Assembly: GCF_000018105.1 (NCBI RefSeq)
Contig: NC_009925.1
Span: forward strand, 5,940,001 to 5,972,000
DNA: 32,000 nucleotides
Source of the DNA: Acaryochloris marina MBIC11017
GTDB lineage: Bacteria > Cyanobacteriota > Cyanobacteriia > Thermosynechococcales > Thermosynechococcaceae
Direction: 5' to 3'
The notes under the pieces are model-generated. The model was not told where the DNA came from. It did no database searches and saw nothing but the letters and a program-made list of their open reading frames with translations. Below are positions 2,025 to 28,851 of the stretch, piece by piece. Numbering within the stretch: position 1 is the stretch's first letter; each line of letters opens with the position of its first letter. Both the position numbers and the translations under genes were made by a program.

Positions 2025-2854
2025 ATGAATTACGAAACAGCCCAAGCGCTAAGTGCAAAAGATTTCAAGCGACGAACTGGGGTCTACAAGCAAACCTTCA
2101 AACGCATGCTCCACGCATGGCACACCTATCACCTGAGTCATTCTAATGCAGGGCGACCTCCGAAGTTGTGCCGTCCCGATCAACTATTAGTGGCCCTTCA
2201 ATATTGGCGAGAATATCGGACCTATTTCCACATTGCTGGAGATTGGGAAGTCTCTGAATCAACGGTTTGCCGTATAGTCCACCAGGTCGAGACCGCTCTG
2301 ATGAACTCAGGACTCTTCCGCCTACCCGGCAAGAAACATCTAATACAAGGATTTGAGCGGCCTGATGTTGTCGTGATGGATGTGACTGAGACACCGATTG
2401 AACGTCCCCAAAAAGGACAAAAAGCGTATTATTCAGGAAAAAAAAGAGACATACCCTCAAATGCCAGATTATTGCTGACCGCAACACTTTAGAGGTTATC
2501 TGTCTGAGCTTTGGCCCAGGCCGTCGGCATGATTTTCAGATATTCAAGGGTTCAGGTATCCATATCCATCCAAATACCGAGAGTTTGCAAGATAGCGGAT
2601 ATCAAGGGATTGCAGCCTACCACGCCAACAGCTATGTTCCTTTCAAGAAGCCACAACATGGTGAACTGACTTCCTTGCAGCGAGAGTATAACTGTGCACT
2701 GAGTCAGGAACGAATGGGCATTGAACACATTAATCGCAGCCTGAAGATTTCCAGAATTCTGTCGGAGCGCTATCGCAATCGTCGTTGTCGCTACGCGCTG
2801 CGGTGTAACTTGATTGCAGCCCTCTATAACCATGAGCTATCTTTGGCTGCTTAA
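2025..2854 (+). CDS. IS5-family (DDE_Tnp_4 / Harbinger-like) transposase, split over two frames and joinable by a -1 shift
   Basis: ORF A (2025..2492) carries VVVMDVTETPIERP, the first catalytic D context. The -1 frame is open from the A8 run to 2854 and carries LQDSGYQG (second D) and MGIEHINRSLK (E). A -1 slip at 2438..2445 gives the family-typical junction YYSGKKKRHTLK. Confidence 0.8.
2438..2445 (+). other. A8 homopolymer: candidate -1 slippery site (A AAA AAA/G type), or a frameshift mutation
   Basis: ORF A frame reads GGA AAA AAA AGA. The frame one base back reads AAA AAA AAG AGA CAT. ORF A stops 47 nt downstream at 2490..2492. Confidence 0.5.
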
Positions 2855-3045: not shown

Positions 3046-3861
3046 TTACTGATCTTCCCAGTTATCAGCTGTACAACGGCCTGCATCAGTAATGGCAATG
3101 GGTTGGATATCACCTTTGTAAGTACCGATTCGGGTTAGGCCCAAGGTGTTGGAAATAGCGATGCAGTGCTTTTTTCCACTAGCATTGTTTGGATTGAAAA
3201 AAATAATCTTGCCACTGGGGTCGGTTGGACTGGCTTGAGCGCTAATGATGGCAAACTCTGGATTTCCTAAAACGCCATATTTAATGGGAATGAGCTGATC
3301 TTTACAAGTCCCTAGCCCTAAGCCTTCATCAATATTCCCTTTGCATTTTTCAGCAATAACCTGAACCACCATACCTGCGTCGGTCCATTGGCTTTTATGC
3401 TCGGGTGCAGATGCCATGGCAATCTGCGAAATGTTCTCTCCGTCATTGAGGCCAAGGGAGGGTGCTTGGACATCTGAACTGATCCACACAGGCTGACTTT
3501 CATCGTCTTGGGCTGTGTTGGCTGTGGGATCAATCAAATTTGTCGCGATAGCCACACTGGTTTCCAAACTGCGATCGCTAACTTTAAGACAAGATCCCGA
3601 AATTTGTCCTGCATCAAAATTAAGGGTCAGAGTGCAGATTTTATTACCTTTGATCGCTTCTCGTTGCGTTTCATTCAACGCGGCCTGTACTTTAGCCATC
3701 GTCTGTTTTACTTTGGCTCGATTCATTGCAGCCATAATACTGGGAGCTGAAACAGCAGCGGCAATGCCGATAATGGCAACAATTACCATTTTTTCAGCCA
3801 GGCTAAACCCTAATTCTGAAGACGAAGACCTAAGTGCAATGAAGGGATGTAAACGAAACAT
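3046..3861 (-). CDS. Prepilin-type pseudopilin, GspH/FimT-like
   Basis: The track ORF is 3046..3924. I prefer the internal ATG at 3861 (MFRLHPFIALRSSSSELG/FSLAEKMVIVAIIGIAAAV). This is a prepilin cleavage/methylation motif: G then F, Glu at +5, then a hydrophobic helix. The following AALNETQREAIKGNKICTLTL resembles the GspH/FimT fold region. Confidence 0.75.
   Translation of the reverse strand: MFRLHPFIALRSSSSELGFSLAEKMVIVAIIGIAAAVSAPSIMAAMNRAKVKQTMAKVQAALNETQREAIKGNKICTLTLNFDAGQISGSCLKVSDRSLETSVAIATNLIDPTANTAQDDESQPVWISSDVQAPSLGLNDGENISQIAMASAPEHKSQWTDAGMVVQVIAEKCKGNIDEGLGLGTCKDQLIPIKYGVLGNPEFAIISAQASPTDPSGKIIFFNPNNASGKKHCIAISNTLGLTRIGTYKGDIQPIAITDAGRCTADNWEDQ
3571..3578. repeat. HIP1 octamer GCGATCGC (one of nine dispersed copies)
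   Basis: The copies start at 3571, 5359, 10397, 14255, 21711, 23007, 23265, 25652 and 28203. About 0.5 would be expected by chance. This is a cyanobacterial genome signature. Confidence 0.9.
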
Positions 3862-4005
3862 GGCAAATTCCAGGGGAAGGAAACAAAGACTAAAGGGTGA
3901 CCACTTGATTAGTGGGGCACCCATGAAAAAAACTCCTCATCACCCATAAGAATTGCTAAAACTTGAACTGAGTAGATACGAGAAAACTGGTTTAAAGCAT
4001 CGTTG

Positions 4006-5565
4006 TCATAACCTCACCCGTTGCCATTGCAAAACACCTCCAAATCGATACCGTACTGGGTAGTCTACATATTTCAGCAGGTCGATCAAACTGCTAACAT
4101 CTTCAGGTACTGCGATGCCAGAGGTCGCATTGGGGGTGATAACGGTATCGTAGGGGGCACCTACTTCCCCAATGAAATTAATGTCTCGATTGTTGGGGTC
4201 GTTTTTAGAACTGAAAATGCCTTCTGCCCATACCACACCTTCAATATTGGTATTTTGCCCACCTGGGCAACCAGGACCAGAGGTCAGTAATTGCACTTCA
4301 TCCCATGCGGACCAAATGAAGGCATTTTGAATGCAAGTTTGGTCATACAGTAAAACCGTGTCGTCTCCACCCCTCAAATGTATTCGTAGATCGCCAACAC
4401 GAGGCGGTTGGCCATCCGTACGAACGTTAAGGATTTGGGCCATATCCTTTAACTGAATGGCTTGTTCGGGGGCACTATCTTCGATGAAATCTAATACGAC
4501 AGAGCCATTGGTGGTGTCGACCGTCAATACATCAGTTCCAGCTAGGTCAATTTGTTCAATCTGGAAAAGGGTTGGTGTATGGCCTCCGACCCCGCTTAGG
4601 GTTTGGCTGCTGGTGATGGTTCCAAAATTGGTGCCTTTTATCCCATCAGGAATAGTTGGTGTCAACAAACAAGCAAACAGCGTGCCTGAGACGGTATCGC
4701 CTGTTGCCCCATCCGATGCTGAAGAAGAGAATATGGCATTCAGATAACTAGCCCGGTCTATATCTCCCGAAGTTGAATTCGAAGTCAAAGAGGAATCTTG
4801 TGATCCTTGAGGATAGTAGTAAACATTGCCTTTACTACCTAGGATTTGGCGACCCCGTAATGCCAAAACACCGACATGCCAAGGGTCATCAGGTTCAGGG
4901 TCATGAAGAACTAAGCCTGGAAAATCGTCTAAATCGGACCGTACGGCAATCCTGATTTGAACACCTGTGGTTTTTCCATCTTTACTAGCTTCAACAAATA
5001 GTGTTCCTTGTTGCTCCGCCGGATTAAAACGATAAGCTCTAACGGTGTAGGAACCAGTGTTACCCATTGACCCCGTCGTTGCAAAGTTGGGACTGCCCCA
5101 CCCTTTTTGTTGATAGCAAGGGTGGTTACTCGGGTCATAGCTCGTCCATTCGTCAATAGCACTGGCTTCTTCGTCGCCACTATTGAACATGCCGTCGGGG
5201 CCGAGATAAGTTTTTCCTGTTTTGGGGTTAATCGTATCGTAATTGCGATTGAGCAATACGGCGTTATTGGGAGCGGTTAGTTGGGCTAAGGATCGAGCCA
5301 TTCCCCCTTCAGCGATGGCCAAACTGGCCCCTGCTTGTTTGCGATTAAATGCAGATGTGCGATCGCTTTGGGCAACCATTATCGTGGACAAGCCCAAAAT
5401 GACCATCACAAACCCTAAACCCAGGGCAAGAGGCAACGCAAATCCCTGCTCCTGCCGCTTAGAATTCAAGCCTCGAGAACAAAAAACAACTAAGTAATAG
5501 AGGAGTTCTGACAATGGCATACTTTGGATGTTCGTTGCAGCCGATAGTCTGTCCCCAGACAGCAT
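4006..5565 (-). CDS. Large PilX-N / pseudopilin-like protein (HpsA-like architecture)
   Basis: 519-aa ORF. KRQEQGFALPLALGLGFVMVILGLSTIMVAQSDR has the same G/FALP + helix layout as the clipped paralog and lacks Glu+5. An alternative start is M16 (5520). The rest is Gly/Ser/Thr/Asp-rich and predicted extracellular. Confidence 0.75.
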   Translation of the reverse strand: MLSGDRLSAATNIQSMPLSELLYYLVVFCSRGLNSKRQEQGFALPLALGLGFVMVILGLSTIMVAQSDRTSAFNRKQAGASLAIAEGGMARSLAQLTAPNNAVLLNRNYDTINPKTGKTYLGPDGMFNSGDEEASAIDEWTSYDPSNHPCYQQKGWGSPNFATTGSMGNTGSYTVRAYRFNPAEQQGTLFVEASKDGKTTGVQIRIAVRSDLDDFPGLVLHDPEPDDPWHVGVLALRGRQILGSKGNVYYYPQGSQDSSLTSNSTSGDIDRASYLNAIFSSSASDGATGDTVSGTLFACLLTPTIPDGIKGTNFGTITSSQTLSGVGGHTPTLFQIEQIDLAGTDVLTVDTTNGSVVLDFIEDSAPEQAIQLKDMAQILNVRTDGQPPRVGDLRIHLRGGDDTVLLYDQTCIQNAFIWSAWDEVQLLTSGPGCPGGQNTNIEGVVWAEGIFSSKNDPNNRDINFIGEVGAPYDTVITPNATSGIAVPEDVSSLIDLLKYVDYPVRYRFGGVLQWQRVRL

Positions 5566-5767: not shown

Positions 5768-7250
5768 CAATGGCACTGACTTAAGCTCAATCAAACAGCT
5801 AGCTTAGCTTTGAGAGCAGAGCGAGGTTGTCGCATTCGCGGGAAAGATTTGGGTCTGCGTTTGACGACTCTCGGTTCGTGCCGATTCGGTCGAGAGGGTA
5901 ATAGATCGGCTGCCATGGTCTCAAGTAGATGAGTAAACAACCGCTTTCTGGTCGCACGGTTGGCTGTCGCCAACAAAGCAAGCATCTGATTGAAGTGTTG
6001 TCGTGCTCCTTGCACAGACAGTTGAGTTCTAGCATTATCTGCTAGCGGTGCCGCAAGTTCCATGAGACTTCTGAGTAGGTTATAGCCCAACAAATGTACC
6101 CAAATGTCCTTGCGCACCATATCCGGAGTTTTGGCACTGAGCATCTCCATTTTTAAGGTGGTTTTGAGATGGCGCAGATTGACTTCCGCCACTGGCCAAC
6201 GCCAGCCATACAAGCGAGTCAGTTGCCCAGCGCTGTAGCGTTGAGCATCCAGCAGCGTCGTCACCACAATAATGTGCTGGTCGCGAAAGCCCTTAAGGGA
6301 TAAGCGCAAACACACCTCTCTAACGACCAATGTTTGAGGAATCAGGGCAAAATCTTGCTCACTCATGTGCTCAGGCCGTTGGGCTGGCTTATGCCATGTC
6401 ACCTGATGATCACCAATGCCATGCTTGTTGCCTTTGCGGAAATCAGTCTTGCGAGCATGATGTTTACGCAACACTCCATCAGCCCTGTGTTGTTGAATGA
6501 TGGCTAGATCAACATAGCTGCCATAAGCTTGGTCCGCCATGACCACATCACCGACCTCAAGGTCTTGATAGAGCAAACGACTCATGACAATTTCACTGGT
6601 GTCCCAGGAGGCAATACAAGCTGACGCCACTGCACCGGTAACCAAACAGAAGAACACTACCAAGCGAGCGATGGGAAAACCACAGCCTGCTGTTTGATTG
6701 CCATGTTGTGGATATGATGCTTGGTTGGCCGCACTATCAGCCATCAACACGGTGGTTCCGTCGTAGACCTTGACGGGCCGACCACACCAGAGGTGCTCTG
6801 GGGAGAGGGGTTGCGCTAAGCACTCAGCGCTTTCGGGAATTAAACGTTGCAACAGTGACTCTGGAAAGCGACTTCTGGCTTTGCTGTAGGCTCCGGTATC
6901 AGATGAGGGCGGTTGGATGCCAGCCGCTGTGAGCCAAGTCGTGATGCATTTGACTGTGTTACGAAGGCTTTTATCGGCTGATAGCACTTGGTAAAGCATG
7001 GCCCACAGCGTAACGATGGGGCTATATATCCGGTTGCGATAGGAGAATGCTTCTTCTTTCAGGAGTTCCTCTAACCTTGAGGCTGGAAGGATATCTGTCC
7101 ACGGTAAACCCAGGCTTTGGGAAAATTGCTGCTTGAGAATTTCGGCTGACTCAGACATAGTGAAAGGCAGAAGTTTATGGCGTGCAAGTCTTGATCCTAT
7201 ATCTATCAAGACTTGTAGCCTTTTCCTGACTTCTTAAGTCAGTGCCATTG
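5768..7250 (-). mobile_element. IS4-family insertion sequence, 1483 bp, perfect 18-bp IRs
   Basis: 5768..5785 is CAATGGCACTGACTTAAG, the exact reverse complement of 7233..7250. A single 472-aa DDE transposase fills the element. It is flanked by a perfect 10-bp direct repeat. Confidence 0.92.
5791..7209 (-). CDS. IS4-family DDE transposase
   Basis: VKVYDGTTVLMAD and GDVVMADQAYGSY are the D contexts. YGWRWPVAEVNLRHLKTTLKME is a YREK-like E region. The likely true start is MSESAEILKQ at 7158. Confidence 0.9.
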   Translation of the reverse strand: MIDIGSRLARHKLLPFTMSESAEILKQQFSQSLGLPWTDILPASRLEELLKEEAFSYRNRIYSPIVTLWAMLYQVLSADKSLRNTVKCITTWLTAAGIQPPSSDTGAYSKARSRFPESLLQRLIPESAECLAQPLSPEHLWCGRPVKVYDGTTVLMADSAANQASYPQHGNQTAGCGFPIARLVVFFCLVTGAVASACIASWDTSEIVMSRLLYQDLEVGDVVMADQAYGSYVDLAIIQQHRADGVLRKHHARKTDFRKGNKHGIGDHQVTWHKPAQRPEHMSEQDFALIPQTLVVREVCLRLSLKGFRDQHIIVVTTLLDAQRYSAGQLTRLYGWRWPVAEVNLRHLKTTLKMEMLSAKTPDMVRKDIWVHLLGYNLLRSLMELAAPLADNARTQLSVQGARQHFNQMLALLATANRATRKRLFTHLLETMAADLLPSRPNRHEPRVVKRRPKSFPRMRQPRSALKAKLAV

Positions 7251-8492: not shown

Positions 8493-9089
8493 CTAGAGTA
8501 CCCGTTGTTTCAGTACCTGAATTTCTTTTTCCTTTTGCTGCAGTTGTCCTTCCAACTGCGATTTCTCATGGGCGAGTTGGCTGACTTTCTGCTGTTCTAG
8601 CGAAAGCCGCATCTTGCAGGCATCTAGTCTTTGAAGCTGAATTTCTAGCAGTTCTGTTACTTCCATCAGCTTCGTGACATCCACATGGGCTCCTAACATT
8701 CGAACGGGCTGGTCAAACTGATCTCGAATGGCAATCCCTCGACATCGGACCCACACTATCTTTCCATTTTTCTTGGTATACCTAACGATTTGATCGTAGG
8801 GGTGAGCTGGATTGTCAAGATGCTTTTCTAAATTTTTGCGGGCAATGACTAAATCTTCTGGGTGGATTAAATCTTGCCACTCTGATGCTAGATGCTGTTT
8901 TTGGGCTGGAGAATACCCTAAAAAAAGCCAAAACTCAGGACTCATCCACTCATGCTCTGGGTTAACCAAATCCCAATACCAAACTCCATCTAAGGTCGCC
9001 CCCTGTAAAAAATCAAAGACGGAGGGGTCATTTAGGATCAATTCATACAGTTCCTGACGGAGATAATGAGAATCTTCAGCTGGCTTCAT
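8493..9089 (-). CDS. Stand-alone PAS domain protein with C-terminal coiled coil
   Basis: The PAS core is WYWDLVNPEHEWMSPEFWLFLGY...IHPEDL...VRYTKKNGKIVWVRCRG...VRMLGAHVDVT. The tail is heptad-rich (QLQRLDACKMRLSLEQQKVSQLAHEKSQLEGQLQQKEKEIQVLKQ). It starts 15 nt after the stop of the upstream kinase, so it is probably co-transcribed. Confidence 0.8.
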   Translation of the reverse strand: MKPAEDSHYLRQELYELILNDPSVFDFLQGATLDGVWYWDLVNPEHEWMSPEFWLFLGYSPAQKQHLASEWQDLIHPEDLVIARKNLEKHLDNPAHPYDQIVRYTKKNGKIVWVRCRGIAIRDQFDQPVRMLGAHVDVTKLMEVTELLEIQLQRLDACKMRLSLEQQKVSQLAHEKSQLEGQLQQKEKEIQVLKQRVL

Positions 9090-9103: not shown

Positions 9104-12100
9104 CTATTGCAATATCGGCACCACAGGCTGCAAGGGGAATTGGAGGATAAAGGTTGCCCCTTTACCTGGGGCGGATGTGCACGTCAGGGTTCCCCCATAG
9201 CTTTCGATAACTTTGCGACATAATGCCAATCCAATTCCTGTCCCTGGGTATTGATTGGAATAATGCAAGCGTTGAAACATGACAAAAACACGCTCCAAAG
9301 AGTCTTCAGGAATTCCAATTCCATTATCCTTAACCAAGATTGTCCAAGATTCAGGTTGTTGTTCTGCAGAGATCTGAATCCGCGGTGGAGTAGAAGAGCG
9401 AAACTTGATGGCATTATTGATTAGATTTTCAAAAACTTGAGTAATCTCTACGGTATGGGCATGAATAGAGGGGAGTGAGTCAAATTCAATAACAGCCTGA
9501 CTTTCTTCTATCGCTAAACTTAAATCGGATTGCACAATTTCGATCACGTGTTTCAAATCGATCAACTCTAGGGGTTGGTCGCTTCGTCCAACCCGAGAGT
9601 ATTGCAGCACATCTTGAATGAGACATTGCATCCGCTGTGCCCCTGACATGATGTACCCAAAGTATCGGCTTTGATCTTGATCCAGCTTTGTCGATAAATC
9701 GTCTTGTAACAGCTCGGCAAAACTTTGGATTTTACGGAGCGGTTCCCGTAAATCGTGGGAAGCGATATAGGCAAACTGCTCTAGCTCCTGATTCGATCGT
9801 TGTAGCTCTTGAATCGCTTGCTCTAATCTCTTTTGAGAATGCTTGATATCGGAAATATCCATACAGGAACAAATCAAACCAGCAAACTGATCGGCTGCTA
9901 TCCTAGGGACTCCCGTTGCCAAAATCCAACGATAGACGCCATCTGCTCTGGCTTGTCGAAATTCCTGCTCAAAGGGACATTGTTGAGCACAGCTCTCTTG
10001 GAATAAGGTTTTTACTCGATCACGATCCTCTGGATGAATGGTCTCTAGCCATCCGTCACCCAGTTGGGACTCCAAAGATTGGCCGGTCAAATTCTCCCAG
10101 GTTTGATTGACATAGGTACAGTTCCCTTGAGCATCACTGAGCCAGATTAAAACTGGAGCATTGTCTGCTAGGGAGTAAAATCGAGCCTCACTTTCTTGTA
10201 AATTACCTTCAATGGTATGTAAAGAGGCATCTTTTTCAGCTAAATCAGCTTCCAGATTGAGGTTGGATAATTCTAAAGCTGCTTCGGCTTGTTTCTGTAG
10301 GCTGATATCAATACAAGACCCAATCATGCCGGCAAATTCCCCTGTGGGTAGAAATCGAGGCTTGGCGGTATCTAAGATCCAACAATAGGTGCCGTTGCGA
10401 TCGCATCGTCGATACTCTAAACGCAAGGGCTGGCGTTCGGTAACGGCCTGTTGGTAAGCCGCCACACTTTCCTCTAAATCCTCCGGGTGAATTCTATCTT
10501 GCCAACCTCGTTCTAACGCTTGTTCTAGAGAATCCCCGGTAAACCTCAGCCACTCTTGATTCAGATAAGTGCAATGTCCTGGAGCTTCCGTGAGCCAGAT
10601 CATCACAGGTGCATGGTCCGCCATGGAGCGAAATCGCTGTTCGCTCTCTAGTCTCGCAGCTTCTGCCAATTTGCGTTGGCTAATATCGACCGAAACCACT
10701 AAGCATCGAGACACTTCTCCTAGATCATCACGCTCGGCAATCATTGATTGCAACACATCAATGATCTCACCTGATTTGGTCTGTATCTGCATCGGTATAT
10801 CAATGCTCAAACCAGACTCTAGAAAACGCGGCCATAGCTTTTGAAACCGCTTTTGGGACTCTAGGTTGAGAAATATATCGACGGTTGCCCCCAACGTCAT
10901 ATTGCGGGGATACCCTAATTTGGAGAGCCAGAAATTACTGACTTCTATAATCACTCCTCGAGCATCCAAGGAGTACATCATCACCGGGGTTTCATGGTAG
11001 AGCTGCTGATAGCGCTCTTGAAAAACCTCTAGGGTATCCTGGGCTAGCTTGGCTTTAATGCGCTGAGATTGGAGTTCAATCTGGACCTTGCGAGTGGCCG
11101 TAATATCAATAATTGACATCACCACTCCCTGTTGCTCATTATCGTTATCCACATAGGGATGGATCCGAATCAGCAAGTGTTGTCCATGGGCGTTAATTTC
11201 CTGCTCGGTGACTTTGCCAGTGCGGGCTGTTTCCGAGAGGACTTCAATCAACGAGGGATAGTTGACATTGATGGCTAAATTTCGAATCGGACGCCCCACA
11301 TCCGTGGGTAGAAATTGAAAAATTTGATTCGCAGCGGGGGTAAATTTCCGCACTTGCAAACTCTGGTCTAGAAACACCACGCCAATTTCTGTGCTGCGGA
11401 ACAGGTTATCAATGTCATTACTCAGAGCTGTCAATTCCTGAATTTTAGATTGATGTTCATTATTAACGGTGTACAGTTCTTCGTTGACGGCATGTAGTTC
11501 TTCATTGGTACTCTGCAGCTCTTCATTAGAGGCAATCAGTTCCTCGTTAGTAGCCTGCTGCTCTTCATTGGTACTTTCTAACTCCTCAATGGTGGCCTGT
11601 AGATTTTCGCGAGTATAAGACAGTTCCAACTCCAGCTGCTCAATCCGGTTGATCACCTCCGTACTACTTTCTACAGCCTGATCTTGTGCAGGGGGAGAAT
11701 TGCGGGAGCTAGCGGAGATCTCAAGTCTCAAGAACATCGATTCTCGGCAATTGGATTGGCAGGGGCTAACCTTGAACCTTAAGTCAAGCGGTCCATCCTT
11801 GTGCTCCCACAAGAGGCTGCTAAACTGTACTGGCTGCTTTTCTCGAAGGACTCGACTCATCGCCGAGATAAAGGGCAAATGCATCACCTCGGGGAGCAAG
11901 GATCTGACATTTTCAGTGGCTGGCCCCTCTGGGATACGTAAAATATCCAGGTGATCGGCACAAACCCGAAGTAACTTCTCGTCCGTATCCAGCAACAGAC
12001 AAGTCATGTTCAGTTCTTCAAGATGGGCTTTAAACGCATTCTCAGTCAGAGGGTCAGCTTGACGGCGGTAGCGAGGATCTCGCCCCGACACGACTGGTGT

Positions 12101-13612
12101 AGCAATCGTTTTAGTTCGAAAATAGTTTAGATTCAGGCGTTGATCCCTGAATTTCGAAAATATCTTATTTTTAGAATGTAAAACCTCAAATTCAGGCTCT
12201 AGTTCACCTAGGTCTTCAGAGGTTCCCAATAATAGAACTCCGCCCTTATTTAGGGAAAAATGCAGATTGCGCAGTACATACTGCTGCAAAGTAGGCTGCA
12301 TATAGATCAGCACATTCCGACAGCACACGACATTCATGCGGGTCAGACTGGCATTTTTGGTTAAATCATGGGGCGAGAAAATCAGCATTTCTCGCAAGGT
12401 TCGTTTAATCGTGAAGTGACCGTTATTGTAGGTGAAATATTTCTGCAGCCGGTCTACACTCACATAATCCGCAATAGACTCATCAAAGCTCCCTAATGCA
12501 GCTTTGTCTAGAGCAGTCTGATCGATGTCTGTTGCAAAGAGCTTAATGGGCATCTGTCGTCCCAGTTCCTCGCACAGCTCTCGAACAATAATCGCCATGG
12601 AATAAGCTTCCTGACCTGTCGCGCAGGCGGTTACCCATATCCTTAAGGTTTCTGCTGCGGGAAAATCTGCAATGATAGGACGCAAAACCTTATCTTTTAG
12701 GTATTCCCAAACCTTCTCATCTCGAAAGAATTGGGTGACATTAATCAGTAAATCCCGGCGTAGTAGGGAACGTTCATCGGCAGATTCGGTTAAGAGGCTG
12801 GCATAGTCGTTCAGTGAATTGTTTTGGGTTAAGAGTCGGCGGCGTTCGACTCGGCGGCCCAGAGTGGATGGTTTATATTGGGAAAAATCGATATCTTCAT
12901 GCTTGGCTAGCAACTCTACAATTTTTTGGAGTTGATGGGCTTCTGCACCTAAGTTGCTGCTAAATTTCACTAAATCTGCTGGAACGATGGCAGGATTTCC
13001 TAAATCGTTCACCATTTGCGCCAGAACTTTTGGAGCTTCTACATAATCAATACATCCAGTACTGATAGCGGTATGGGGCATACCATCGAATTCAGCCGTA
13101 TTGGGGTCTTGAACTAACGTAATCCCCCCACTTTCATGGATATGTTGGAGCCCATGGGTACCGTCGCTCCCTGTACCAGAGAGAACAATACCAATAGCAC
13201 GTTCTTGAATATCATCTGCCAAGGACTGAAAAAATAAATTAATAGGAAAGTTCGGCTTTTGGTCTCGCTTCTGGCGATAGAGGTAAAGGCAACGGTCCCG
13301 AACAATCATATTTTGACCTGCCGGGATCAAATAGATTGAATTGGGCTGAAGTGCCATCCCTTCTTCTGCAATCTGAATGCCCATTTGGGTACGACGGCCC
13401 AAAATTTCATTCATTAAACTCTTAAAATCTGGGGACAAATGTTGAATAACAACAAAAGCCACCCCCGAGTCAGGAATTATATTTTCAAAGAAAACTTCAA
13501 GAGGCTTCAGGCCACCTGCGGATGCTCCAACGGCAACGACATAGAATGAAGGAGCAATAGTGTTTAGCGTATTTGAATCAGCATTTAGGGATGGGTGATC
13601 GTTAGAATTCAT
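9104..13612 (-). CDS. CheB methylesterase - CheR methyltransferase - multi-PAS - HisKA/HATPase hybrid sensor kinase (1502 aa)
   Basis: The N-terminus has CheB motifs ([28 protein letters not shown]). A CheR SAM-methyltransferase region follows ([26 protein letters not shown]). Then come a NEEL coiled coil, several PAS/PAC units (IHPEDL x2), the H-box [16 protein letters not shown], and the N/G boxes NLINNAIKF and DNGIGI...GTGIGLALC. Confidence 0.9.
11432..11599 (-). repeat. In-frame 21-nt (heptad) repeat array encoding EExx[AS][ST]N units
   Basis: My translation gives [56 protein letters not shown], starting at about aa 672 of the 1502-aa protein. It is coding periodicity, not a CRISPR or VNTR. 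Confidence 0.9.
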
Positions 13613-14223: not shown

Positions 14224-16767
14224 ATGGAAATTAGAGAACTAGCGATTTCTAATTGCGATCGCGAGCCCGTTCATATTCCGGGTCGCATCCAAATCTTTGG
14301 GGCTCTGATTGCTACAGATAAGCATCTTGAGTCCATCACTCATGTTTCCAGTAATATCAGTGATTTTTTGGGAGTCACCCCTGCGGATGCTCTAGGACAA
14401 TCTCTCAGTATTTTGCTGCCAGAAGAGGTGATTCATACCCTCAGAAATATCGCAGGCCATCCCACCATCGCAACTCATCGGGAGCGAGCAGGGGTCTATC
14501 CACTCCATCAGTCCATGCTAGATATAAGTTTGCATCGATTGGGGCCTCATTTTCTAATTGAACTAGAGTCAGTTCCCTCGGCACAGCTCAACAGCCAATC
14601 CGCTTTTACTAAAATCCAAATGCTTCTGGCCCGTCTGCAAGATGAAACGGCAACCTCAGCCCTACTGCAACTAGCCGTCAAAGACTTGCAGCAAGTGACA
14701 GAGTTCGATCGAGTTATGGCGTATCAATTTCTACCCGATGGGGCTGGGGAAGTTGTCGCCGAAGCCATGGTAGATGAGTTGGAACCCAATCTTGGCCTCA
14801 GATACCCCGCTTCAGATATCCCTCAACAGGTCCGTGGGATTGCCTTAAAGATGCCTATCCGTGCGATCTCCGATATTGATGCTCCCACCGCCGACTTAAT
14901 TGCCGCCGATCCAACCGCAGATCCCCTAGACCTTACCCTGACCCATGTGCGGGCTGTATCTCCCATTCATCTGGAGTATTTAGCCAATATGGGGGTTCAA
15001 TCCTCCATGAATGTGGCCATTATTGTCCATAGGGAACTATGGGGGCTTTTTGCGTTTCACCACAACAGTGTCAAATTATTGCCCCCTGATTACCGATCCA
15101 TCTGCGATTTGTTTGGCCAACTTTTTTCCCTCAAATTCCAGTTGGTTTTGGAAGAAGAGCGGTTCAATAACCGCAAACACATTATTTCAGCGATCTCTCA
15201 GATCACCCAAAAACTGACGAGCAGTGGCAGTTTTACGCTAACCATACAAACTTTAGGGCCACAACTCTGCTCCATGCTCTCGGCCCAGGGGTTGGCCGTT
15301 ATTGACAAGCAAGAGATTCAAACCTATGGGGATGTTCCAGCGCTCGATATCATTCAAGAACTGGTTCATCAGGTTCAAACCCATCCCAGTCCTGAACTGG
15401 TGCCCCTAGAAAACCTATCCCACCTCGACCGTATCGATGCAAACCAACTGGGTAAAACGGCCGGTGCCCTCTGCCTTGGTATATCCCCCCTCGACGAAGT
15501 CTTCGTTATTTTCTTTCGCAATGAAATTATCCATGAAGTTCGCTGGGCCGGATCGCCAGAAAAACAGATAGTCGAAGGGCCAAACGGCCCCCGATTACTC
15601 CCCCGTTCCTCCTTTGCAGAGTATCGGGAAACGGTTGCAGGCCAATGCCAATCTTGGTCGTCCCTCGACACAGAAGCGGCCTTGGAATTGCGGACTGGGC
15701 TAATGCAGCTAGCGATCAGTCAAGGAGAAAACCAGCAGCAGGAATGGTTAAGACAACAGCGACAACAAGATCTCTTAATTGCTGAACTTAACCACCGCGT
15801 TAAAAATATTCTGGCCTTAATCCGGTCCATCTCCCGCCAAACCCGCCACTCCACTACTTCCGTCGAGGAATATACCTTACTGTTAGACCGCCGCATTGAA
15901 GCTCTAGCCCATGCCCATGATTTGGTGTCTGGGCATGGCTTGGAATGGCCCAATCTACAAAACTTGTTAACAACTGGACTCCGGCCTTACCTAGCAAAAC
16001 CCAAGCACCAAGTTAGTTTCTCTGGCCCAGAAGTGGGGTTAAAAGCCAACTTTGTTCCCATGTTTGCCTTAGTCATTCATGAACTGATGACGAACTCTGC
16101 CAAGTATGGGGCTTTATCAGTTCCTACCGGAAAAGTTGATGTCTGTTGGCGGGAACAGGATGGAGGGTTGGCATTTGATTGGGAGGAATCGGATGGACCG
16201 ACCGTCTTGCCGCCCCAGCGTAAGGGGTTTGGACAGACGTTAATCGAGCGAGCAATACCGTTTGAGTTTGAAGGAGAGGCAACGCTTCGCTTCCTCCACA
16301 CAGGCATTCAAGTCAATTTTTGGCTGCCTGCCCACCTGATCCTGCTCCAGAATGACCCATCAGAAATTTCCCCTCCTTCAATGTCCACCCCCCAGAACGA
16401 GGAGGAGCCTGACATTGCTCCTGGTACGGTTCTTCTTGTTGAAGACAACATGTTACTGGCCCTCGAAATGGAAAATCTTCTAGAGTCTTTAGGATTTAGC
16501 GATATAGATACGGCCCCCAGGGTCAAGCAGGCCATTAAACTCCTAGACCAAAAGCAATACATCATGGGTATATTAGACATCAACCTCAAGGACGAGAATA
16601 GCTTTGGCGTAGCAGAAGAACTGATCAAGCGACGAATACCATTCCTATTTACGACTGGCTATAATTCCAAATTTACTCTTCCAGAATCTCTAGCCACAGT
16701 CCCCATGCTCAAGAAGCCCATTGATGGGAATCAATTAAACAACACCATTCATCAACTCTTAGCCTAA
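14224..16767 (+). CDS. Bacteriophytochrome (PAS-GAF-PHY) with HWE-type histidine kinase and C-terminal receiver
   Basis: There is an N-terminal Cys in SNCDREPVHIPG (Cys11, 14254..14256) and the DIP motif YPASDIPQQVR. SPIHLEYLANMGV has no GAF Cys, and LWGLFAFHH follows. The PHY tongue has WAGSPEK and PRSSF. The HWE signature is ELNHRVKN plus FDWEESDGP...KGFGQTLIE. The receiver has LLVEDN...ILDINL...KKP. Confidence 0.9.
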   Translation: MEIRELAISNCDREPVHIPGRIQIFGALIATDKHLESITHVSSNISDFLGVTPADALGQSLSILLPEEVIHTLRNIAGHPTIATHRERAGVYPLHQSMLDISLHRLGPHFLIELESVPSAQLNSQSAFTKIQMLLARLQDETATSALLQLAVKDLQQVTEFDRVMAYQFLPDGAGEVVAEAMVDELEPNLGLRYPASDIPQQVRGIALKMPIRAISDIDAPTADLIAADPTADPLDLTLTHVRAVSPIHLEYLANMGVQSSMNVAIIVHRELWGLFAFHHNSVKLLPPDYRSICDLFGQLFSLKFQLVLEEERFNNRKHIISAISQITQKLTSSGSFTLTIQTLGPQLCSMLSAQGLAVIDKQEIQTYGDVPALDIIQELVHQVQTHPSPELVPLENLSHLDRIDANQLGKTAGALCLGISPLDEVFVIFFRNEIIHEVRWAGSPEKQIVEGPNGPRLLPRSSFAEYRETVAGQCQSWSSLDTEAALELRTGLMQLAISQGENQQQEWLRQQRQQDLLIAELNHRVKNILALIRSISRQTRHSTTSVEEYTLLLDRRIEALAHAHDLVSGHGLEWPNLQNLLTTGLRPYLAKPKHQVSFSGPEVGLKANFVPMFALVIHELMTNSAKYGALSVPTGKVDVCWREQDGGLAFDWEESDGPTVLPPQRKGFGQTLIERAIPFEFEGEATLRFLHTGIQVNFWLPAHLILLQNDPSEISPPSMSTPQNEEEPDIAPGTVLLVEDNMLLALEMENLLESLGFSDIDTAPRVKQAIKLLDQKQYIMGILDINLKDENSFGVAEELIKRRIPFLFTTGYNSKFTLPESLATVPMLKKPIDGNQLNNTIHQLLA

Positions 16768-16781
16768 AAGGATCTGGACAA

Positions 16782-17189
16782 TTGGCTAATATCCTGATAT
16801 TTGAAGACGATTTAATACTGGCAGAGTCTTGGCACAAAACCCTTAGTGCTCAAGGGCACCAGGTTGAACATACCACCAATGTCGATACGGCAATGTCCAA
16901 AATTTATGAAGGATATCTAGACATTGCTTTCATCGATATTTTTATTCAAAAGAACAATCAAGAGAGTCTTAGGGGAGGGATTTTGCTGATTTCCAAAATC
17001 AACATGCTCTCCCTAGGGTATAAACCATGGCTTATTGCCATTAGTGGACGTTCTCATGATCCCAGTTGTTCAGTCTTAGAAATTGCCAAGACAGTCGGTG
17101 CAGATGAATATCTGAAGAAACCGATCGATTTGGAGGAGTTAATTGCTGCAGTCGAACGAGTGACAAGTGCCCAGGTCAAAGAGCAGTAG
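16782..17189 (+). CDS. Single-domain response-regulator receiver (CheY-like)
   Basis: TTG start 14 nt after the phytochrome stop. Motifs are ILIFEDD, IAFIDIF and YLKKP. No output domain. Confidence 0.8.
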   Translation: MANILIFEDDLILAESWHKTLSAQGHQVEHTTNVDTAMSKIYEGYLDIAFIDIFIQKNNQESLRGGILLISKINMLSLGYKPWLIAISGRSHDPSCSVLEIAKTVGADEYLKKPIDLEELIAAVERVTSAQVKEQ

Positions 17190-17216
17190 ATCGGCTCAAG
17201 TCAGTCTGTGATCTCG

Positions 17217-17645
17217 TTACATATCATGGGGAGGCAACTTTACAATCGTAAACCAAAAGTCCTCCAGTAAATTGACCACCTTAACCAATCCCTTCAGTCC
17301 CACTGGTTTGGTGACATACGCATTTGCCCCGATCTTATAACTCTTCAGAATATCTTCATCTGCGTCTGATGTTGTCAGTACGACCACTGGTATTTGCTTA
17401 AACCGATCACTCTCTTGCATATCAGTCAATACTTCTCGGCCATCCTTGCGCGGTAAGTTGAGATCAAGCAACATCAAATCGGGAGTCCTTGCTGTCTCAA
17501 ATTCCCCTTTTTTTTGTAGATAGTCCAAAGCTTCTATACCATCTCTAACCACATTAACTCTGAGGGCAACTTTTGAACGATTAAAGGCTTCCAAGGTGAG
17601 TTCTATATCCCCCTCATCATCCTCCACCAGCAAGATTTCAATCAT
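17217..17645 (-). CDS. Single-domain response regulator, Rcp1-like (phytochrome-associated type)
   Basis: Motifs are ILLVEDDEGD, DLMLLDLNLPRKDGREVL, PVVVLTTS and NAYVTKP. The Rcp-typical C-terminus FWFTIVKLPP is present. Confidence 0.88.
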   Translation of the reverse strand: MIEILLVEDDEGDIELTLEAFNRSKVALRVNVVRDGIEALDYLQKKGEFETARTPDLMLLDLNLPRKDGREVLTDMQESDRFKQIPVVVLTTSDADEDILKSYKIGANAYVTKPVGLKGLVKVVNLLEDFWFTIVKLPPHDM

Positions 17646-17805
17646 CTATTGCACCAAAGTTTAAACTCGGCTAGCTATTCAATATCATAAACAAATTTAT
17701 AAAAATCGCATGAATTATAATTTATTGGCCAGATAAATTTAATTATGGATGATTTTGACGGTCATTTAACGAATTAAGGATTCTTTGAAGGCTTTATAAA
17801 AAATT

Positions 17806-20241
17806 TCATTTAGGTAGGGTAAAGGAAAAGTTCGCCCCTTTACCTTCTTCAGAATCTACCCAGATTTGCCCCCCATGACGTTCAACTAGTTTTTTACAAA
17901 TGGCTAAACCAATTCCGGTGCCCGAATATTCTTCTCGATGGTGTAATCGCTGAAAAATGACAAATATCCGATCAGTAAACTGTGGATTGATGCCAATTCC
18001 ATTGTCTTGAACTGAAATAGTCCAAAATTTTTGATCTTGAGTGGCTCGAATATAAATCCTCGGACGATCGGCTTGGCAATACTTAATGGCATTAGAAATC
18101 AAATTTTGGAATACCTGCCCCATTAGCACGGGATCGACAGCAACGGTTGGCAAGGAATCTATAATAATCTCGACCTGGCGTTTTTCAATGACCTTTTCTA
18201 AGTCAGATTTTACCTTTTCAAGGATGGACGATAATGCTGTGGGTTGAACTTTCAGTTCGGCTCGTCCGACGCGGGAATAGTTCAGGAGATCATCTATTAA
18301 CCCCTGCATACGCATTGCCCCATCGGTGATGTAGCGAATATAGCGATCTGCTGTCTCGTCGAGTTGCCCCTGATAGCGATCGGCCAGTAAATCGGTAAAA
18401 CTCCCAATTTTCCGTAAGGGTTCCTGCAAATCATGGGAGGCAACATAGGCGAAATGGCCCAACTCTTGGTTGGAACGAATTAATTCACTGTTTATTCTTT
18501 GCAGTTCTTGCTCTGCCTGTTTGCGCTCACTAATATCATGGTGCATTCCCACCATGCGAAGGGGTTCCCCCTGATCATTCCAGGCTACGACTTTTCCCAT
18601 TGCCGAAATCCATTTCCATTGCTCGGATTTCGTGCGGACCCGATAGTCAAACACATAGGGGATGGAAGGGTCTTGTAAATGCTTCTTCAGCAGAGTCTTT
18701 ATTCTGAGTAAGTCATCTGGATGGGTCCAGCTTTGCCAAGTTTTAAACGAGGAAGGCAATTCTTCCAATTCATACCCCAGTATTTGATAGAACTGAGTGC
18801 TCCAGCTGGTTTCATCGGTGAGAATGTTCCAATCCCACCACCCATCTCCAGAAGCCTCTAATGCCAACTCCAAACGGGATTCACTCTCTTTTAGGGACTG
18901 AACGGCAATTTGTAAAGCCAACGTGCGATTTTTAACCCGCTCTTCCAACTCAGCATTCATTTGCTTTAATTGGTTCTCTAAGCGTTTACGCTCAGAGATG
19001 TCTCTCCAGCTTGAACGGCTGTACTTCAGCTTGCCTTGCTGATCTCGAAACCCCTGAGCATTGAGACTGACATTCAAGGTCGTTCCATCTTTGCGTTGTA
19101 CCAATAGGTTGCCATTCCTGACTTCACCTTTTTCCAAAAAGGTTTGGAAGGATTCTTTGGCATCTGATCGAGAATCAGGATGATATAGATCAAGCACTGA
19201 GCGTCCAACTAACTCTGGATAGCTGTATCCAAGCTCTTTCATTAATGTTTGGTTACAACGCAAAATCTTTGTGCTATCAACATCAACCGATAGATACATA
19301 TCTGGAGCGTTGTCATAAAGATCTTGATACTGAGCAGCAGATTTTTTCAAGTTTGAGTAAGCTGTATCTAATTCTGAAGAGCGATCTTTTATGGCAAGAT
19401 TCAACTGCCCAATGATCAATTTCAAATCTGTTTCAACCTGTTTGTGTTCAGAGATATTATCGATTTCAGCAATTAGATATAAGGGCTGACCCATGGAATC
19501 TCTGACTAAAGAGAGACTTAACGAGACCCAAACAATATGGCCTTGCTTGTGGCAATATCGCTTTTCAACACGACAGGCTGAAATCTCTCCAGATAATAAT
19601 TGGTCACGATAATGTTGATCAGCGGCTAAATCCTCAGGATAGGTAATATTTCTAAGATTGGTCTGCAATAAATCTGCTTCTGAATACCCCAAGATTTTAT
19701 AGAAGGCTGGATTAACCCTGATCCAGTCTTCATCAGGAGTGAGAATCGCCTTGCCGATCAAGGAATATTCAAAGATATTATTTAAAGTCTGCTGGTTTTC
19801 CCACCATACTGACTCTTGTTGCCGACTTCCTTCATTTTCCTGATTAACGAGTTGACTTTTATTCGCAGAGGATGTCCTATGACTTGGAGATAAAGTCTGT
19901 AAAGTATTTGCTATGAATTCCCTGGTCGTCCATATTGCAATCGCAGCAGATAGTAATTTTATACCTCCTTGTACCCTAGCCAGAGGAATATACAAAGAGG
20001 CTATATCCAGAATCGAAATGAGGCTAAAAGTAACCAATAACGCGATAAATAAAGTAAAAAGCTTGGGATGGCTAAAGAACTGATGACAATAGGCTATATA
20101 GCCTATTAGGAAAGCCGAACTCCCAAATACTAAAGCAATTGCTATATCTGGAATAATTGTAAAGGGGAACTGCTCCAGTTGAATTGAAAGATTAGCAAAT
20201 AATAAATAATATGAGAGAAAAAAAATATTTAGGAGAGTCAC
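17806..20241 (-). CDS. Membrane-anchored multi-PAS sensor histidine kinase (811 aa)
   Basis: About 110 aa of hydrophobic N-terminus (about 4 TM segments), three PAS/PAC units, the H-box FAYVASHDLQEPLRKI, and NLISNAIKY / DNGIGI / GTGIGLAICK. Confidence 0.9.
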   Translation of the reverse strand: MTLLNIFFLSYYLLFANLSIQLEQFPFTIIPDIAIALVFGSSAFLIGYIAYCHQFFSHPKLFTLFIALLVTFSLISILDIASLYIPLARVQGGIKLLSAAIAIWTTREFIANTLQTLSPSHRTSSANKSQLVNQENEGSRQQESVWWENQQTLNNIFEYSLIGKAILTPDEDWIRVNPAFYKILGYSEADLLQTNLRNITYPEDLAADQHYRDQLLSGEISACRVEKRYCHKQGHIVWVSLSLSLVRDSMGQPLYLIAEIDNISEHKQVETDLKLIIGQLNLAIKDRSSELDTAYSNLKKSAAQYQDLYDNAPDMYLSVDVDSTKILRCNQTLMKELGYSYPELVGRSVLDLYHPDSRSDAKESFQTFLEKGEVRNGNLLVQRKDGTTLNVSLNAQGFRDQQGKLKYSRSSWRDISERKRLENQLKQMNAELEERVKNRTLALQIAVQSLKESESRLELALEASGDGWWDWNILTDETSWSTQFYQILGYELEELPSSFKTWQSWTHPDDLLRIKTLLKKHLQDPSIPYVFDYRVRTKSEQWKWISAMGKVVAWNDQGEPLRMVGMHHDISERKQAEQELQRINSELIRSNQELGHFAYVASHDLQEPLRKIGSFTDLLADRYQGQLDETADRYIRYITDGAMRMQGLIDDLLNYSRVGRAELKVQPTALSSILEKVKSDLEKVIEKRQVEIIIDSLPTVAVDPVLMGQVFQNLISNAIKYCQADRPRIYIRATQDQKFWTISVQDNGIGINPQFTDRIFVIFQRLHHREEYSGTGIGLAICKKLVERHGGQIWVDSEEGKGANFSFTLPK

Positions 20242-28839: not shown

Positions 28840-28851
28840 CCTGCAAAGTTT

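What the first reader, a model, noticed from the sequence alone, without database searches (positions are those of the whole stretch)
11432..11599. CheB-CheR sensor kinase carries its own array of MCP-methylation-site-like heptads
Between the CheR domain/first PAS and the later PAS units, the protein reads [42 protein letters not shown]. That is six consecutive Glu-Glu pairs at exact 7-residue spacing.

Four of them fit the classical chemoreceptor methylation consensus Glu-Glu-x-x-Ala/Ser-Ser/Thr. Compare E. coli Tar EETAAS / EQLTAT, which are also heptad-spaced.

No MCP, CheA or CheW gene is in the window.

My hypothesis is that the fused methyltransferase and methylesterase act on this coiled coil of the same polypeptide or dimer. 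That would give a histidine kinase built-in, receptor-independent methylation adaptation.
Basis: partly seen in the sequence, partly recalled or inferred. Interest (0 to 1): 0.75.

Follow-up and report, generated by a model that had tools for sequence, protein, structure and literature searches.

The report
Known CheB-CheR kinase with methyl-accepting coil
The six evenly spaced Glu-Glu pairs are real and very strongly conserved, but they are the hallmark of an already described, still untested family (MAC1, "methyl-accepting coiled-coil" kinases) proposed in 2010 to methylate itself, so the idea is sound but not new.

Summary
Window 11432-11599 (minus strand) encodes aa 672-727 of a 1502-aa protein, Acaryochloris marina AM1_5892. 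Its domain order is CheB, CheR, PAS-like domain, long helix, PAS_10, three PAS units, HisKA, HATPase. Six Glu-Glu pairs sit exactly 7 residues apart (aa 676-712), and four fit EExx[AS][ST].

The array is a family hallmark, not a local oddity. There are 3,625 50%-identity clusters at E<=1e-30, spread over at least ten phyla, and almost all carry exactly six heptads. All seven heptad positions are conserved, whereas the flanking helix conserves only its core positions. The array always follows an intact CheB-CheR module (105/105 long representatives). CheB and CheR catalytic motifs are near-invariant. MCP, CheA and CheW genes are absent from the window and from 77 of 80 related loci.

The preprint calls that class experimentally uncharacterised. 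I found no later experimental work.

The array differs from chemoreceptors. It is one continuous 93-residue helix between two PAS domains, not a hairpin bundle. It has no MCPsignal homology and does not fit the 10-residue methylation consensus. The CheB domain has no receiver domain.

Verdict: a real feature, with a plausible but unproven mechanism that is already in the literature.

The parts
9104..13612 (-). Whole gene: 1502-aa CheB-CheR-PAS-coiled coil-PAS_10-PAS x3-HisKA-HATPase_c sensor kinase (Acaryochloris marina AM1_5892 / WP_012166037.1; eggNOG K13924)
13016..13537 (-). CheB methylesterase catalytic domain (aa 26-199). No receiver domain precedes it. Catalytic triad is S31, H58, D150.
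   Evidence: Pfam E=6.9e-53. Triad mapped on the 1A2O alignment. Conserved in 69-71 of 71 homologues.
12785..12934 (-). CheR_N all-alpha domain (aa 227-276)
12167..12742 (-). CheR SAM-dependent methyltransferase domain (aa 291-482). Motifs VTxFFRD, RxW..C.TGxEAYS, ATD, CRNxLIY and LxxGxSE are conserved.
   Evidence: Pfam E=6.1e-49. Alignments to CheR structures 5FTW and 5XLX. Family conservation.
11708..12052 (-). PAS-like alpha/beta domain (aa 521-635), not detected by Pfam when scanned alone
   Evidence: AF2 model with pLDDT mostly above 80. Foldseek hits to tandem-PAS sensors. No Pfam hit.
11390..11668 (-). One continuous predicted helix of 93 residues (aa 649-741) linking the PAS-like domain to PAS_10. 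This is the 'methyl-accepting coiled coil' (MAC) helix.
   Evidence: AF2 H165-257 of the model, pLDDT 95-98
11462..11587 (-). Six heptads [42 protein letters not shown] (aa 676-717). These are the candidate methyl-accepting Glu pairs.
11099..11413 (-). PAS_10 domain (aa 734-838), at a fixed heptad-quantised distance from the array across the family
   Evidence: Pfam E=2.7e-25. Spacing counts.
9824..10984 (-). Three further PAS units (aa 877-1263)
9128..9784 (-). HisKA (aa 1277-1341) and HATPase_c (aa 1388-1495) kinase core
8493..9089 (-). 198-aa single-PAS protein, 15 nt downstream on the same strand. Probably co-transcribed (inference).

Best explanation
What it is. The gene is an ordinary member of the MAC1 class of CheB-CheR fusion sensor kinases (KEGG K13924). 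The heptad array is that family's conserved 'methyl-accepting coiled coil'.

Most likely mechanism (inferred, not shown). The protein dimerises through a long parallel helix between two PAS domains. The fused CheR uses SAM to methyl-esterify Glu side chains of the six EE pairs, giving up to 12 sites per dimer. It could act on the same dimer or on a neighbouring one. The fused CheB has no receiver domain, so it is not gated by phosphorylation, and it removes the methyl groups. Neutralising these charges would change the packing or register of the helix. That would reset how strongly the PAS sensors drive the HisKA/HATPase core, giving a chemoreceptor-independent adaptation or memory loop inside a two-component kinase.

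Shown here: domain architecture, intact catalytic motifs, extreme conservation of every face of the helix, obligate coupling of the array to CheB-CheR, and absence of MCP/CheA/CheW nearby.

Inferred: that the Glu pairs are the substrate, that methylation tunes kinase output, and whether the enzymes act in cis or in trans.
For: 1. Architecture. The order is CheB, CheR_N, CheR, PAS-like, helix, PAS_10, PAS x3, HisKA, HATPase_c.

2. Conservation of number. 116 of 120 word-search hits and 130 of 137 50%-cluster representatives have exactly six [EQ][EQ] heptads. The array is about 90% identical between phyla, while the surrounding region is 35-45% identical.

3. Conservation of all faces. Across 193 distinct sequences, column entropy within the array is about 0-1 bit at most of the seven heptad positions, and the fifth position is more variable (up to about 2.5 bits). 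The two heptads just upstream in the same helix show the usual coiled-coil pattern, with a conserved core and surface positions above 3 bits. This points to a constraint beyond helix packing, such as recognition by an enzyme. One caveat: two heptads are invariant by construction of the anchor.

4. Substitutions. Q is the commonest replacement at most EE positions. The E/Q interchange is typical of chemoreceptor methylation sites (established knowledge). Counts are small.

5. Coupling. In 80 loci from at least ten phyla, every locus with 2 kb or more of upstream sequence has CheR at a fixed distance before the array. All but one also have CheB. All 105 representatives with the array 600 aa or more from the N-terminus carry CheB plus CheR, and no other N-terminal module was seen. 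Array proteins called without CheB-CheR had a CheB-CheR ORF abutting them in 2 of the 3 checked.

6. Active enzymes. CheB S31/H58/D150 and the CheR motifs are near-invariant.

7. Not in a che cluster. There is no MCP, CheA or CheW in the window. MCP-like genes were found in only 3 of 80 loci and CheW in 1.

8. Motif resemblance. The best BLASTP alignment of the helix against full-length E. coli Tar lands on methylation helix 1 in register with sites 295, 302 and 309 (42% identity over 36 aa, E=0.032 for the single comparison).

9. Literature. [quoted passage not shown] Some proteome clusters have MAC components but no other chemotaxis system. MiST 3.0 lists MAC as a class identified by Wuichet and Zhulin.
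Against: - No experiment exists. [quoted passage not shown]
- The predicted geometry is a single uninterrupted helix, so the substrate would be a two-stranded coiled coil. CheR and CheB are known to work on an antiparallel four-helix bundle.
- There is no sequence homology to MCP signalling domains. Pfam at E<=10 gives only generic coiled-coil families. A profile of the helix against all PDB sequences returns coiled coils and no MCP.
- None of the six sites fits the 10-residue pattern [ASTG]2xx[EQ]2xx[ASTG]2, which all four Tar sites fit. The heptad position that is small in Tar is E/Q/I/Q/H/Y here, and an invariant Asn has no Tar counterpart.
- The Tar alignment is only marginally significant (E=0.032).
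- One homologue (L079) keeps an intact array although its CheB domain is degenerate.
- One array protein (P0008) has no CheB-CheR within 6 kb.
Confidence: 0.6

Rival explanations
1. The array is only a structural or signal-transmitting coiled coil between two PAS domains. An Asn/Leu/Glu-rich helix of this kind could switch register. Under this reading the fused CheB and CheR act on other proteins, such as conventional chemoreceptors, with the kinase part merely regulating or localising them.
For: The helix is continuous with PAS_10 and resembles tandem-PAS sensors such as DosP, LOV-PAS-HK and FixL. Length variation comes in whole heptads: anchor-to-PAS_10 distances are 51, 65, 44 and 72 residues, as expected for a helix that must keep its phase. 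There is no homology to MCPs, and the 10-mer consensus is not met. [quoted passage not shown]
Against: A purely structural coiled coil does not need invariant surface residues, yet nearly all positions of the array are conserved while the adjacent heptads of the same helix vary freely on the surface. The array never appears without CheB-CheR in long representatives. MCP genes are almost never nearby. Some proteome clusters carry MAC components but no other chemotaxis system. Cyanobacterial Tfp-type chemotaxis systems are generally described as lacking CheB and CheR (my own knowledge, not tested here).
Confidence: 0.2
2. The array is a docking site or pseudosubstrate for the fused enzymes, analogous in role to the NWETF tether of Tar and Tsr. 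It would hold or inhibit CheR and CheB rather than being turned over, or the modification would occur only in trans between neighbouring dimers in a higher-order assembly.
For: The same conservation and coupling data fit recognition without catalysis. The 2022 preprint itself raises the possibility of modification of adjacent receptors in arrays. L079 keeps the array with a dead CheB.
Against: Six identical, heptad-spaced EE pairs that match the short methylation motif and align in register with Tar sites are more than a tether would need. Both catalytic centres are under strong purifying selection, so some substrate must be turned over.
Confidence: 0.15
3. The array is a chance low-complexity stretch or a recent DNA slippage product with no specific function.
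For: None beyond its repetitive look.
Against: The expected number of such arrays by composition is about 1e-10. There is no DNA tandem repeat, and the heptads use different synonymous codons. The array is conserved in thousands of clusters across phyla.
Confidence: 0.01

Closest known systems
MAC1 class of methyl-accepting coiled-coil proteins (Wuichet and Zhulin 2010; profile HMMs in MiST 3.0); KEGG K13924 'two-component system, chemotaxis family, CheB/CheR fusion protein'
   Same: CheB and CheR domains sit in one polypeptide with sensor (PAS) and histidine-kinase domains and a conserved coiled coil proposed to accept methyl groups. The gene is not part of a CheA/CheW cluster. The window protein is itself annotated K13924.
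   Different: Nothing of substance, so I file it as a member. I could not read the 2010 paper, so I cannot say which of these it already reported.
Methyl-accepting chemotaxis proteins (for example E. coli Tar, sites Q295/E302/Q309/E491)
   Same: Both have heptad-spaced [EQ][EQ] pairs followed by xx[AS][ST]. The local alignment is in register with Tar methylation helix 1. Both are associated with CheR and CheB enzymes.
   Different: There is no MCPsignal domain and no CheA/CheW-binding hairpin tip. The structure is a single continuous helix rather than an antiparallel four-helix bundle. There are six sites on one helix. The 10-residue consensus is not met, and each heptad carries an invariant Asn. 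The enzymes are fused in cis. The output is a HisKA kinase rather than CheA.
Tandem-PAS sensor kinases and phosphodiesterases with helical PAS-PAS linkers (Brucella LOV-PAS-HK 6PH4, FixL 8JS5, DosP 9CMF)
   Same: The fold of aa 521-850 is PAS, helix, PAS. These are the top Foldseek hits.
   Different: TM-scores are low (0.22-0.28) because the linker helix here is 93 residues long. It carries a repeat that is conserved on every face and is always preceded by CheB-CheR.
Canonical CheB (REC plus methylesterase) and CheR
   Same: The catalytic triad and SAM-binding motifs are conserved. The window protein is 27-28% identical to E. coli CheB and CheR.
   Different: The CheB domain has no receiver domain, so it is not controlled by phosphorylation. 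The MAC1 CheB and CheR domains of different phyla are closer to each other (34-61% identity) than to E. coli CheB and CheR.

Membership tests
MAC1 (methyl-accepting coiled-coil protein, CheB-CheR incorporated) | CheB and CheR related domains within the same polypeptide | tested here: met
   Pfam CheB_methylest 6.9e-53, CheR 6.1e-49, CheR_N 3.1e-10
MAC1 (methyl-accepting coiled-coil protein, CheB-CheR incorporated) | Conserved coiled coil carrying methylation-site-like Glu pairs | tested here: met
   Six EE heptads in a 93-residue helix, conserved family-wide. That this helix is the 'MAC' of the 2010 paper is an inference, because that paper could not be read.
MAC1 (methyl-accepting coiled-coil protein, CheB-CheR incorporated) | Kinase function in the same protein | tested here: met
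   HisKA 5.8e-14 and HATPase_c 2.8e-27. 88 of 118 long representatives have a detectable kinase core.
MAC1 (methyl-accepting coiled-coil protein, CheB-CheR incorporated) | Match to the MiST3 MAC1 profile HMM | not testable with these tools
   The profile is not in Pfam, NCBIfam or the other libraries on hand (one search says no Pfam model exists).
MAC1 (methyl-accepting coiled-coil protein, CheB-CheR incorporated) | Actual methylation and demethylation of the coiled coil | not testable with these tools
   Needs mass spectrometry or SAM labelling. The literature reports none.
KEGG K13924 CheB/CheR fusion protein | Orthology assignment | tested here: met
   The source annotation of the identical protein reads 329726.AM1_5892 COG0642, COG2201, COG2202, COG1352, K13924. 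Many homologues are named 'two-component system CheB/CheR fusion protein'.
Methyl-accepting chemotaxis protein (MCP) | MCPsignal (PF00015) cytoplasmic signalling domain | tested here: not met
   No hit at E<=0.01 for the whole protein or at E<=10 for the helix. phmmer with Tar aa 261-520 finds nothing in 137 representatives. A profile against PDB returns no MCP.
Methyl-accepting chemotaxis protein (MCP) | Helical hairpin forming an antiparallel four-helix bundle in the dimer | tested here: not met
   The AF2 monomer model gives one uninterrupted helix, aa 649-741, pLDDT 95-98. The dimer was not modelled.
Methyl-accepting chemotaxis protein (MCP) | Short methylation motif [EQ][EQ]xx[AS][ST] | tested here: met
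   Four of six heptads fit (aa 676, 683, 690, 697), with no match elsewhere in the protein.
Methyl-accepting chemotaxis protein (MCP) | Extended motif [ASTG][ASTG]xx[EQ][EQ]xx[ASTG][ASTG] (consensus recalled from Alexander and Zhulin 2007; that paper was not readable here) | tested here: not met
   0 of 6 array sites fit, against 4 of 4 known Tar sites.
CheB methylesterase | Ser-His-Asp catalytic triad (S164/H190/D286 in Salmonella CheB) | tested here: met
   S31, H58 and D150 align with the triad of 1A2O and are conserved in 69, 70 and 71 of 71 homologues.
CheB methylesterase | N-terminal receiver domain controlling the esterase | tested here: not met
   The CheB domain starts at aa 26, and there is no Response_reg hit in the protein.
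CheR methyltransferase | SAM-binding and class-specific motifs | tested here: met
   Aligned with 5FTW and 5XLX. F295, F296, R297, W326, G333, E335, D362, C431, R432, N433, I436, Y437 and G463 are invariant in 71 homologues.

The most novel reading that the evidence does not exclude
The most novel reading still open is that the array really is reversibly methylated by its own fused enzymes. In that case a PAS histidine kinase of a cyanobacterium would carry a complete, receptor-independent adaptation loop on a two-stranded inter-PAS coiled coil. It would have 12 sites per dimer and an esterase with no phospho-control. Here the gene sits beside a bacteriophytochrome and an ethylene-receptor-like kinase. 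This would be the first experimental proof that CheR/CheB chemistry works outside four-helix chemoreceptor bundles. The idea itself dates from 2010, so the novelty would lie in the proof and the structural mechanism, not in the concept.
Probability: 0.55. Interest if true: 0.6.

Novelty: already known. Interest (0 to 1): 0.33.

Why it matters
If the coiled coil is truly methylated, thousands of two-component kinases in at least ten phyla have a built-in memory of the chemotaxis type. Many of these lineages are not known for chemotaxis, for example Mucilaginibacter, Pedobacter and cyanobacteria. That would extend methylation-based adaptation from motility control to general gene regulation.

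It would also show that CheR and CheB can act on a simple two-stranded coiled coil. The class has been catalogued for over a decade without an experiment. The A. marina protein, or a soluble CheB-CheR-PAS-helix-PAS_10 fragment, is a reasonable test object.

For the scan itself the lesson is that the feature is real. However, both the feature and the hypothesis are already described.

Tried and rejected
- Primary source. I tried to read Wuichet and Zhulin 2010 (PMC3401578, PMID 20587806) and Alexander and Zhulin 2007 (PMC1797150). Neither is held. The MAC1 definition therefore rests on two papers that cite it, and the 10-mer consensus rests on memory plus a check on real Tar sites.\n- Literature. 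Searches for experimental work found none (one search failed on syntax). Mentions of cheBR fusions in the Geobacter and Rhodospirillum centenum genome papers are counts only.\n- Homology of the helix to MCPs. The PDB sequence search of aa 485-850 gave no relevant hit. The permissive Pfam scan gave only generic coiled-coil families. The profile of the helix against PDB gave coiled coils, with an engineered EELKAIK tag on a viral glycoprotein construct as top hit. I rejected homology and kept only motif-level resemblance.\n- DNA slippage origin. Rejected.\n- Array proteins without CheB-CheR. Of the three checked, P0017 and P0075 have the CheB-CheR ORF abutting or overlapping upstream, which indicates a split or frameshifted call. 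P0008 has none within 6 kb, and its downstream genes are fragmented, next to a recombinase. I treat it as a probable remnant and an unexplained exception.\n- Full-length or dimer structure prediction. I did not attempt this to test docking of the helix on CheR or CheB. The tool returns no coordinates, contacts or PAE and does not model multimers.
Full report
**1. The observation**

The finding lies on the minus strand. Window 11432-11599 translates to [56 protein letters not shown]. This is aa 672-727 of a 1502-aa ORF at 9104..13612(-).

Glu-Glu pairs start at aa 676, 683, 690, 697, 704 and 711, exactly seven apart. They make up 6 of the 11 EE pairs in the protein. From the protein's own Glu content, about 1e-10 such arrays are expected by chance.

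The short chemoreceptor motif [EQ][EQ]xx[AS][ST] matches the first four heptads and nothing else in the protein.

I fetched the real E. coli K-12 tar gene.

The repeat is not a DNA-level repeat. Tandem Repeats Finder reports nothing, and the six heptads use different synonymous codons.

**2. The protein and its surroundings**

Pfam gives this domain order:
- CheB_methylest, aa 26-199
- CheR_N, aa 227-276
- CheR, aa 291-482
- PAS_10, aa 734-838
- PAS_9, aa 877-979, and two more PAS units up to about aa 1263
- HisKA, aa 1277-1341
- HATPase_c, aa 1388-1495

No receiver domain precedes the CheB domain.

I ran an AlphaFold2 model of aa 485-850 with a 51-sequence alignment (mean pLDDT 86.7). It shows three things:
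- aa 521-635 form a PAS-like alpha/beta domain that Pfam misses.
- aa 649-741 form one uninterrupted 93-residue helix (pLDDT 95-98), with the array in its middle.
- The helix runs straight into PAS_10.

Foldseek against the PDB returns tandem-PAS sensors (DosP, Brucella LOV-PAS-HK, FixL, PpsR, NifL) and no chemoreceptor.

The identical protein is Acaryochloris marina AM1_5892 / WP_012166037.1. Its source annotation lists COG2201 (CheB), COG1352 (CheR) and KEGG K13924, the CheB/CheR fusion protein.

Neighbouring genes:
- a small PAS protein 15 nt downstream
- a divergent bacteriophytochrome with an HWE kinase and a receiver domain
- two single-domain receivers
- an ETR1_N-PAS kinase
- transposases

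No MCP, CheA or CheW is found by Pfam or by tblastn with the E. coli proteins.

**3. Comparative evidence**

*Family size and spread.* A word-indexed search with aa 500-850 found more than 6,235 relatives. Many are named 'two-component system CheB/CheR fusion protein'. An exhaustive HMMER search of 1.84 billion cluster representatives with aa 646-850 found 3,625 clusters at E<=1e-30 and 11,301 at E<=1e-10. The 80 loci it returned come from Cyanobacteria, Planctomycetota, alpha-, beta-, gamma- and delta-Proteobacteria, Bacteroidota, Bacillota, Chloroflexota, Gemmatimonadota, Acidobacteriota, Spirochaetota and Thermotogae.

*Number of heptads.* Exactly six [EQ][EQ] heptads occur in 116 of 120 hits and in 130 of 137 representatives.

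*Conservation pattern.* In 193 distinct sequences, most positions of the heptad unit N-E-E-L-x-[SA]-[TSV] have entropies of about 0-1 bit. The fifth position is more variable. The two heptads immediately upstream in the same helix show the usual coiled-coil pattern. Their core positions are conserved and their surface positions exceed 3 bits. This internal contrast is the strongest sign that the array is constrained by something that reads its surface. Two heptads are invariant by construction of the anchor I used. The others are not.

*Substitutions and length.* The commonest replacement at most Glu positions is Gln, though counts are small. Length variation between the array and PAS_10 comes in whole heptads. 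Distances are 51 residues in 258 sequences, 65 in 35, 44 in 5 and 72 in 1.

**4. Coupling to the enzymes**

tblastn with the window's own domains shows a consistent pattern. Every one of the 80 loci with at least 2 kb of upstream sequence has CheR at a fixed distance before the array. All but L079 also have CheB.

Among representatives, 105 of 105 with the array at least 600 residues from the N-terminus carry CheB plus CheR. No alternative N-terminal module was seen. The rest are N-terminally short proteins, many probably truncated.

I checked three array proteins that had been called without CheB-CheR:
- Two have a CheB-CheR ORF abutting or overlapping upstream.
- One, P0008, has none within 6 kb and sits among fragmented genes.

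*Catalytic residues.* I mapped the CheB triad on the alignment to Salmonella CheB 1A2O as S31, H58 and D150. It is conserved in 69, 70 and 71 of 71 homologues. The CheR motifs are invariant. The exception, L079, has a visibly degenerate CheB domain but an intact array.

*Chemotaxis genes nearby.* MCP-like genes occur within 10 kb in only 3 of 80 loci, and CheW in 1.

*Outputs.* Among 118 long representatives, 88 have a detectable kinase core, 41 of them with a receiver as well. The rest are unresolved. None carries an MCP signalling or CheW domain.

**5. How it probably works**

The best-supported reading has five steps:
1. The long helix forms a parallel coiled coil in the kinase dimer.
2. 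The fused CheR methylates the Glu pairs.
3. The fused CheB, which has no receiver and so no phospho-control, demethylates them.
4. The resulting charge changes alter helix packing.
5. This resets the coupling between the PAS sensors and the kinase core, giving adaptation without chemoreceptors.

Architecture, conservation, coupling and intact catalytic centres are shown. Substrate identity, the effect on the kinase, and cis versus trans action are inferred. I put about 0.6 on this mechanism and about 0.9 on the family assignment.

Rivals:
- A purely mechanical signalling helix, with the enzymes aimed at other substrates (about 0.2).
- A docking or pseudosubstrate element, or strictly trans modification within arrays (about 0.15).
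- Chance or DNA slippage (excluded).

**6. Comparison with what is known**

*Published class.* The hypothesis is already published. [quoted passage not shown] A 2022 preprint gives a fuller description (10.1101/2022.05.07.491037):
[quoted passage not shown] - Some proteome clusters have MAC components but no other chemotaxis system.

The window protein meets every MAC1 feature I could test. I could not run the MiST HMM or read the 2010 paper.

*Not an MCP.* It is not a chemoreceptor:
- It has no MCPsignal domain.
- It has a single helix instead of a hairpin bundle.
- None of its six sites fits the extended 10-residue consensus that all four Tar sites fit.

The resemblance to Tar is at motif level only. 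The best BLASTP alignment against full-length Tar does land on methylation helix 1, in register with sites 295, 302 and 309. However, its E-value is 0.032 for that single comparison.

**7. Verdict**

It is nevertheless a catalogued family and a catalogued hypothesis, so a specialist would not be surprised. The open point is experimental, and nine of the ten allowed literature searches, eight of them completed, found no such work up to mid-2026.

Novelty: already known. Interest: modest (0.33). This reflects an unresolved, directly testable mechanism rather than a discovery.

Noticed in passing
window 14224-20241: A dense sensory cluster lies divergent from the MAC1 gene. It holds a bacteriophytochrome (PAS_2-GAF-PHY-HWE_HK-REC, 14224-16767 +), two single-domain receivers (16782-17189 + and 17217-17645 -), and a kinase with an ethylene-receptor-like ETR1_N domain plus PAS units (17806-20241 -). 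Whether the MAC1 kinase signals to these receivers is unknown.
   Followed up: no
window 28276-32000: A T4 gp19-like tail-tube gene (28276-28839 +, Pfam 7.6e-37) is followed directly by an open frame of more than 1,050 codons that runs off the window end. The frame is P/Q/S/T/N-rich and low in complexity, with one 123-bp tandem repeat at 30117-30340. This explains the strong skews (GC skew about -0.3, AT skew +0.2 to +0.3) over 29-32 kb. It may be part of a phage-tail-like (contractile injection) locus.
   Followed up: partly
L002 8048-15139; L070 3125-10582: Two complete CheB-CheR-array-PAS_10 genes lie in tandem within about 5 kb in an uncultured cyanobacterium and in a Tepidimonas MAG. This shows paralogous expansion of the family.
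   Followed up: no
L079 8039-11600 (Bacillales bacterium UBA4100): In this homologue the CheB domain is degenerate. GASAGG becomes IAVAHD, the catalytic His is replaced, and tblastn finds no CheB hit. CheR and the six-heptad array are intact, although the first pair is D-E. It could be a methylation-only variant or a decaying gene.
   Followed up: partly
L081 6001-7467 (protein P0008): An array-PAS_10 protein with no CheB or CheR within 6 kb. The downstream PAS, GAF and HATPase pieces are called as separate short genes, and a resolvase lies upstream. It is probably a rearranged or frameshifted remnant, and it is the one clear exception to the coupling rule.
   Followed up: partly
193 array segments from L001-L080 and P0001-P0120 (window aa 676-790 equivalent): The distance from the array to the PAS_10 core varies only by multiples of seven residues (51, 65, 44, 72), and a few proteins have 8 or 9 heptads. 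The helical phase between array and PAS_10 is therefore preserved.
   Followed up: yes
window 2025-2492 and 5791-7209; 22751-23110: There are transposase genes (HTH_Tnp_4; DDE_Tnp_1) a few kb downstream of the MAC1 operon, and a Phage_holin_4_2 family gene at 22751-23110. Two ORFs, 3046-3924 and 4006-5565 (292 and 519 aa), have no Pfam match.
   Followed up: no
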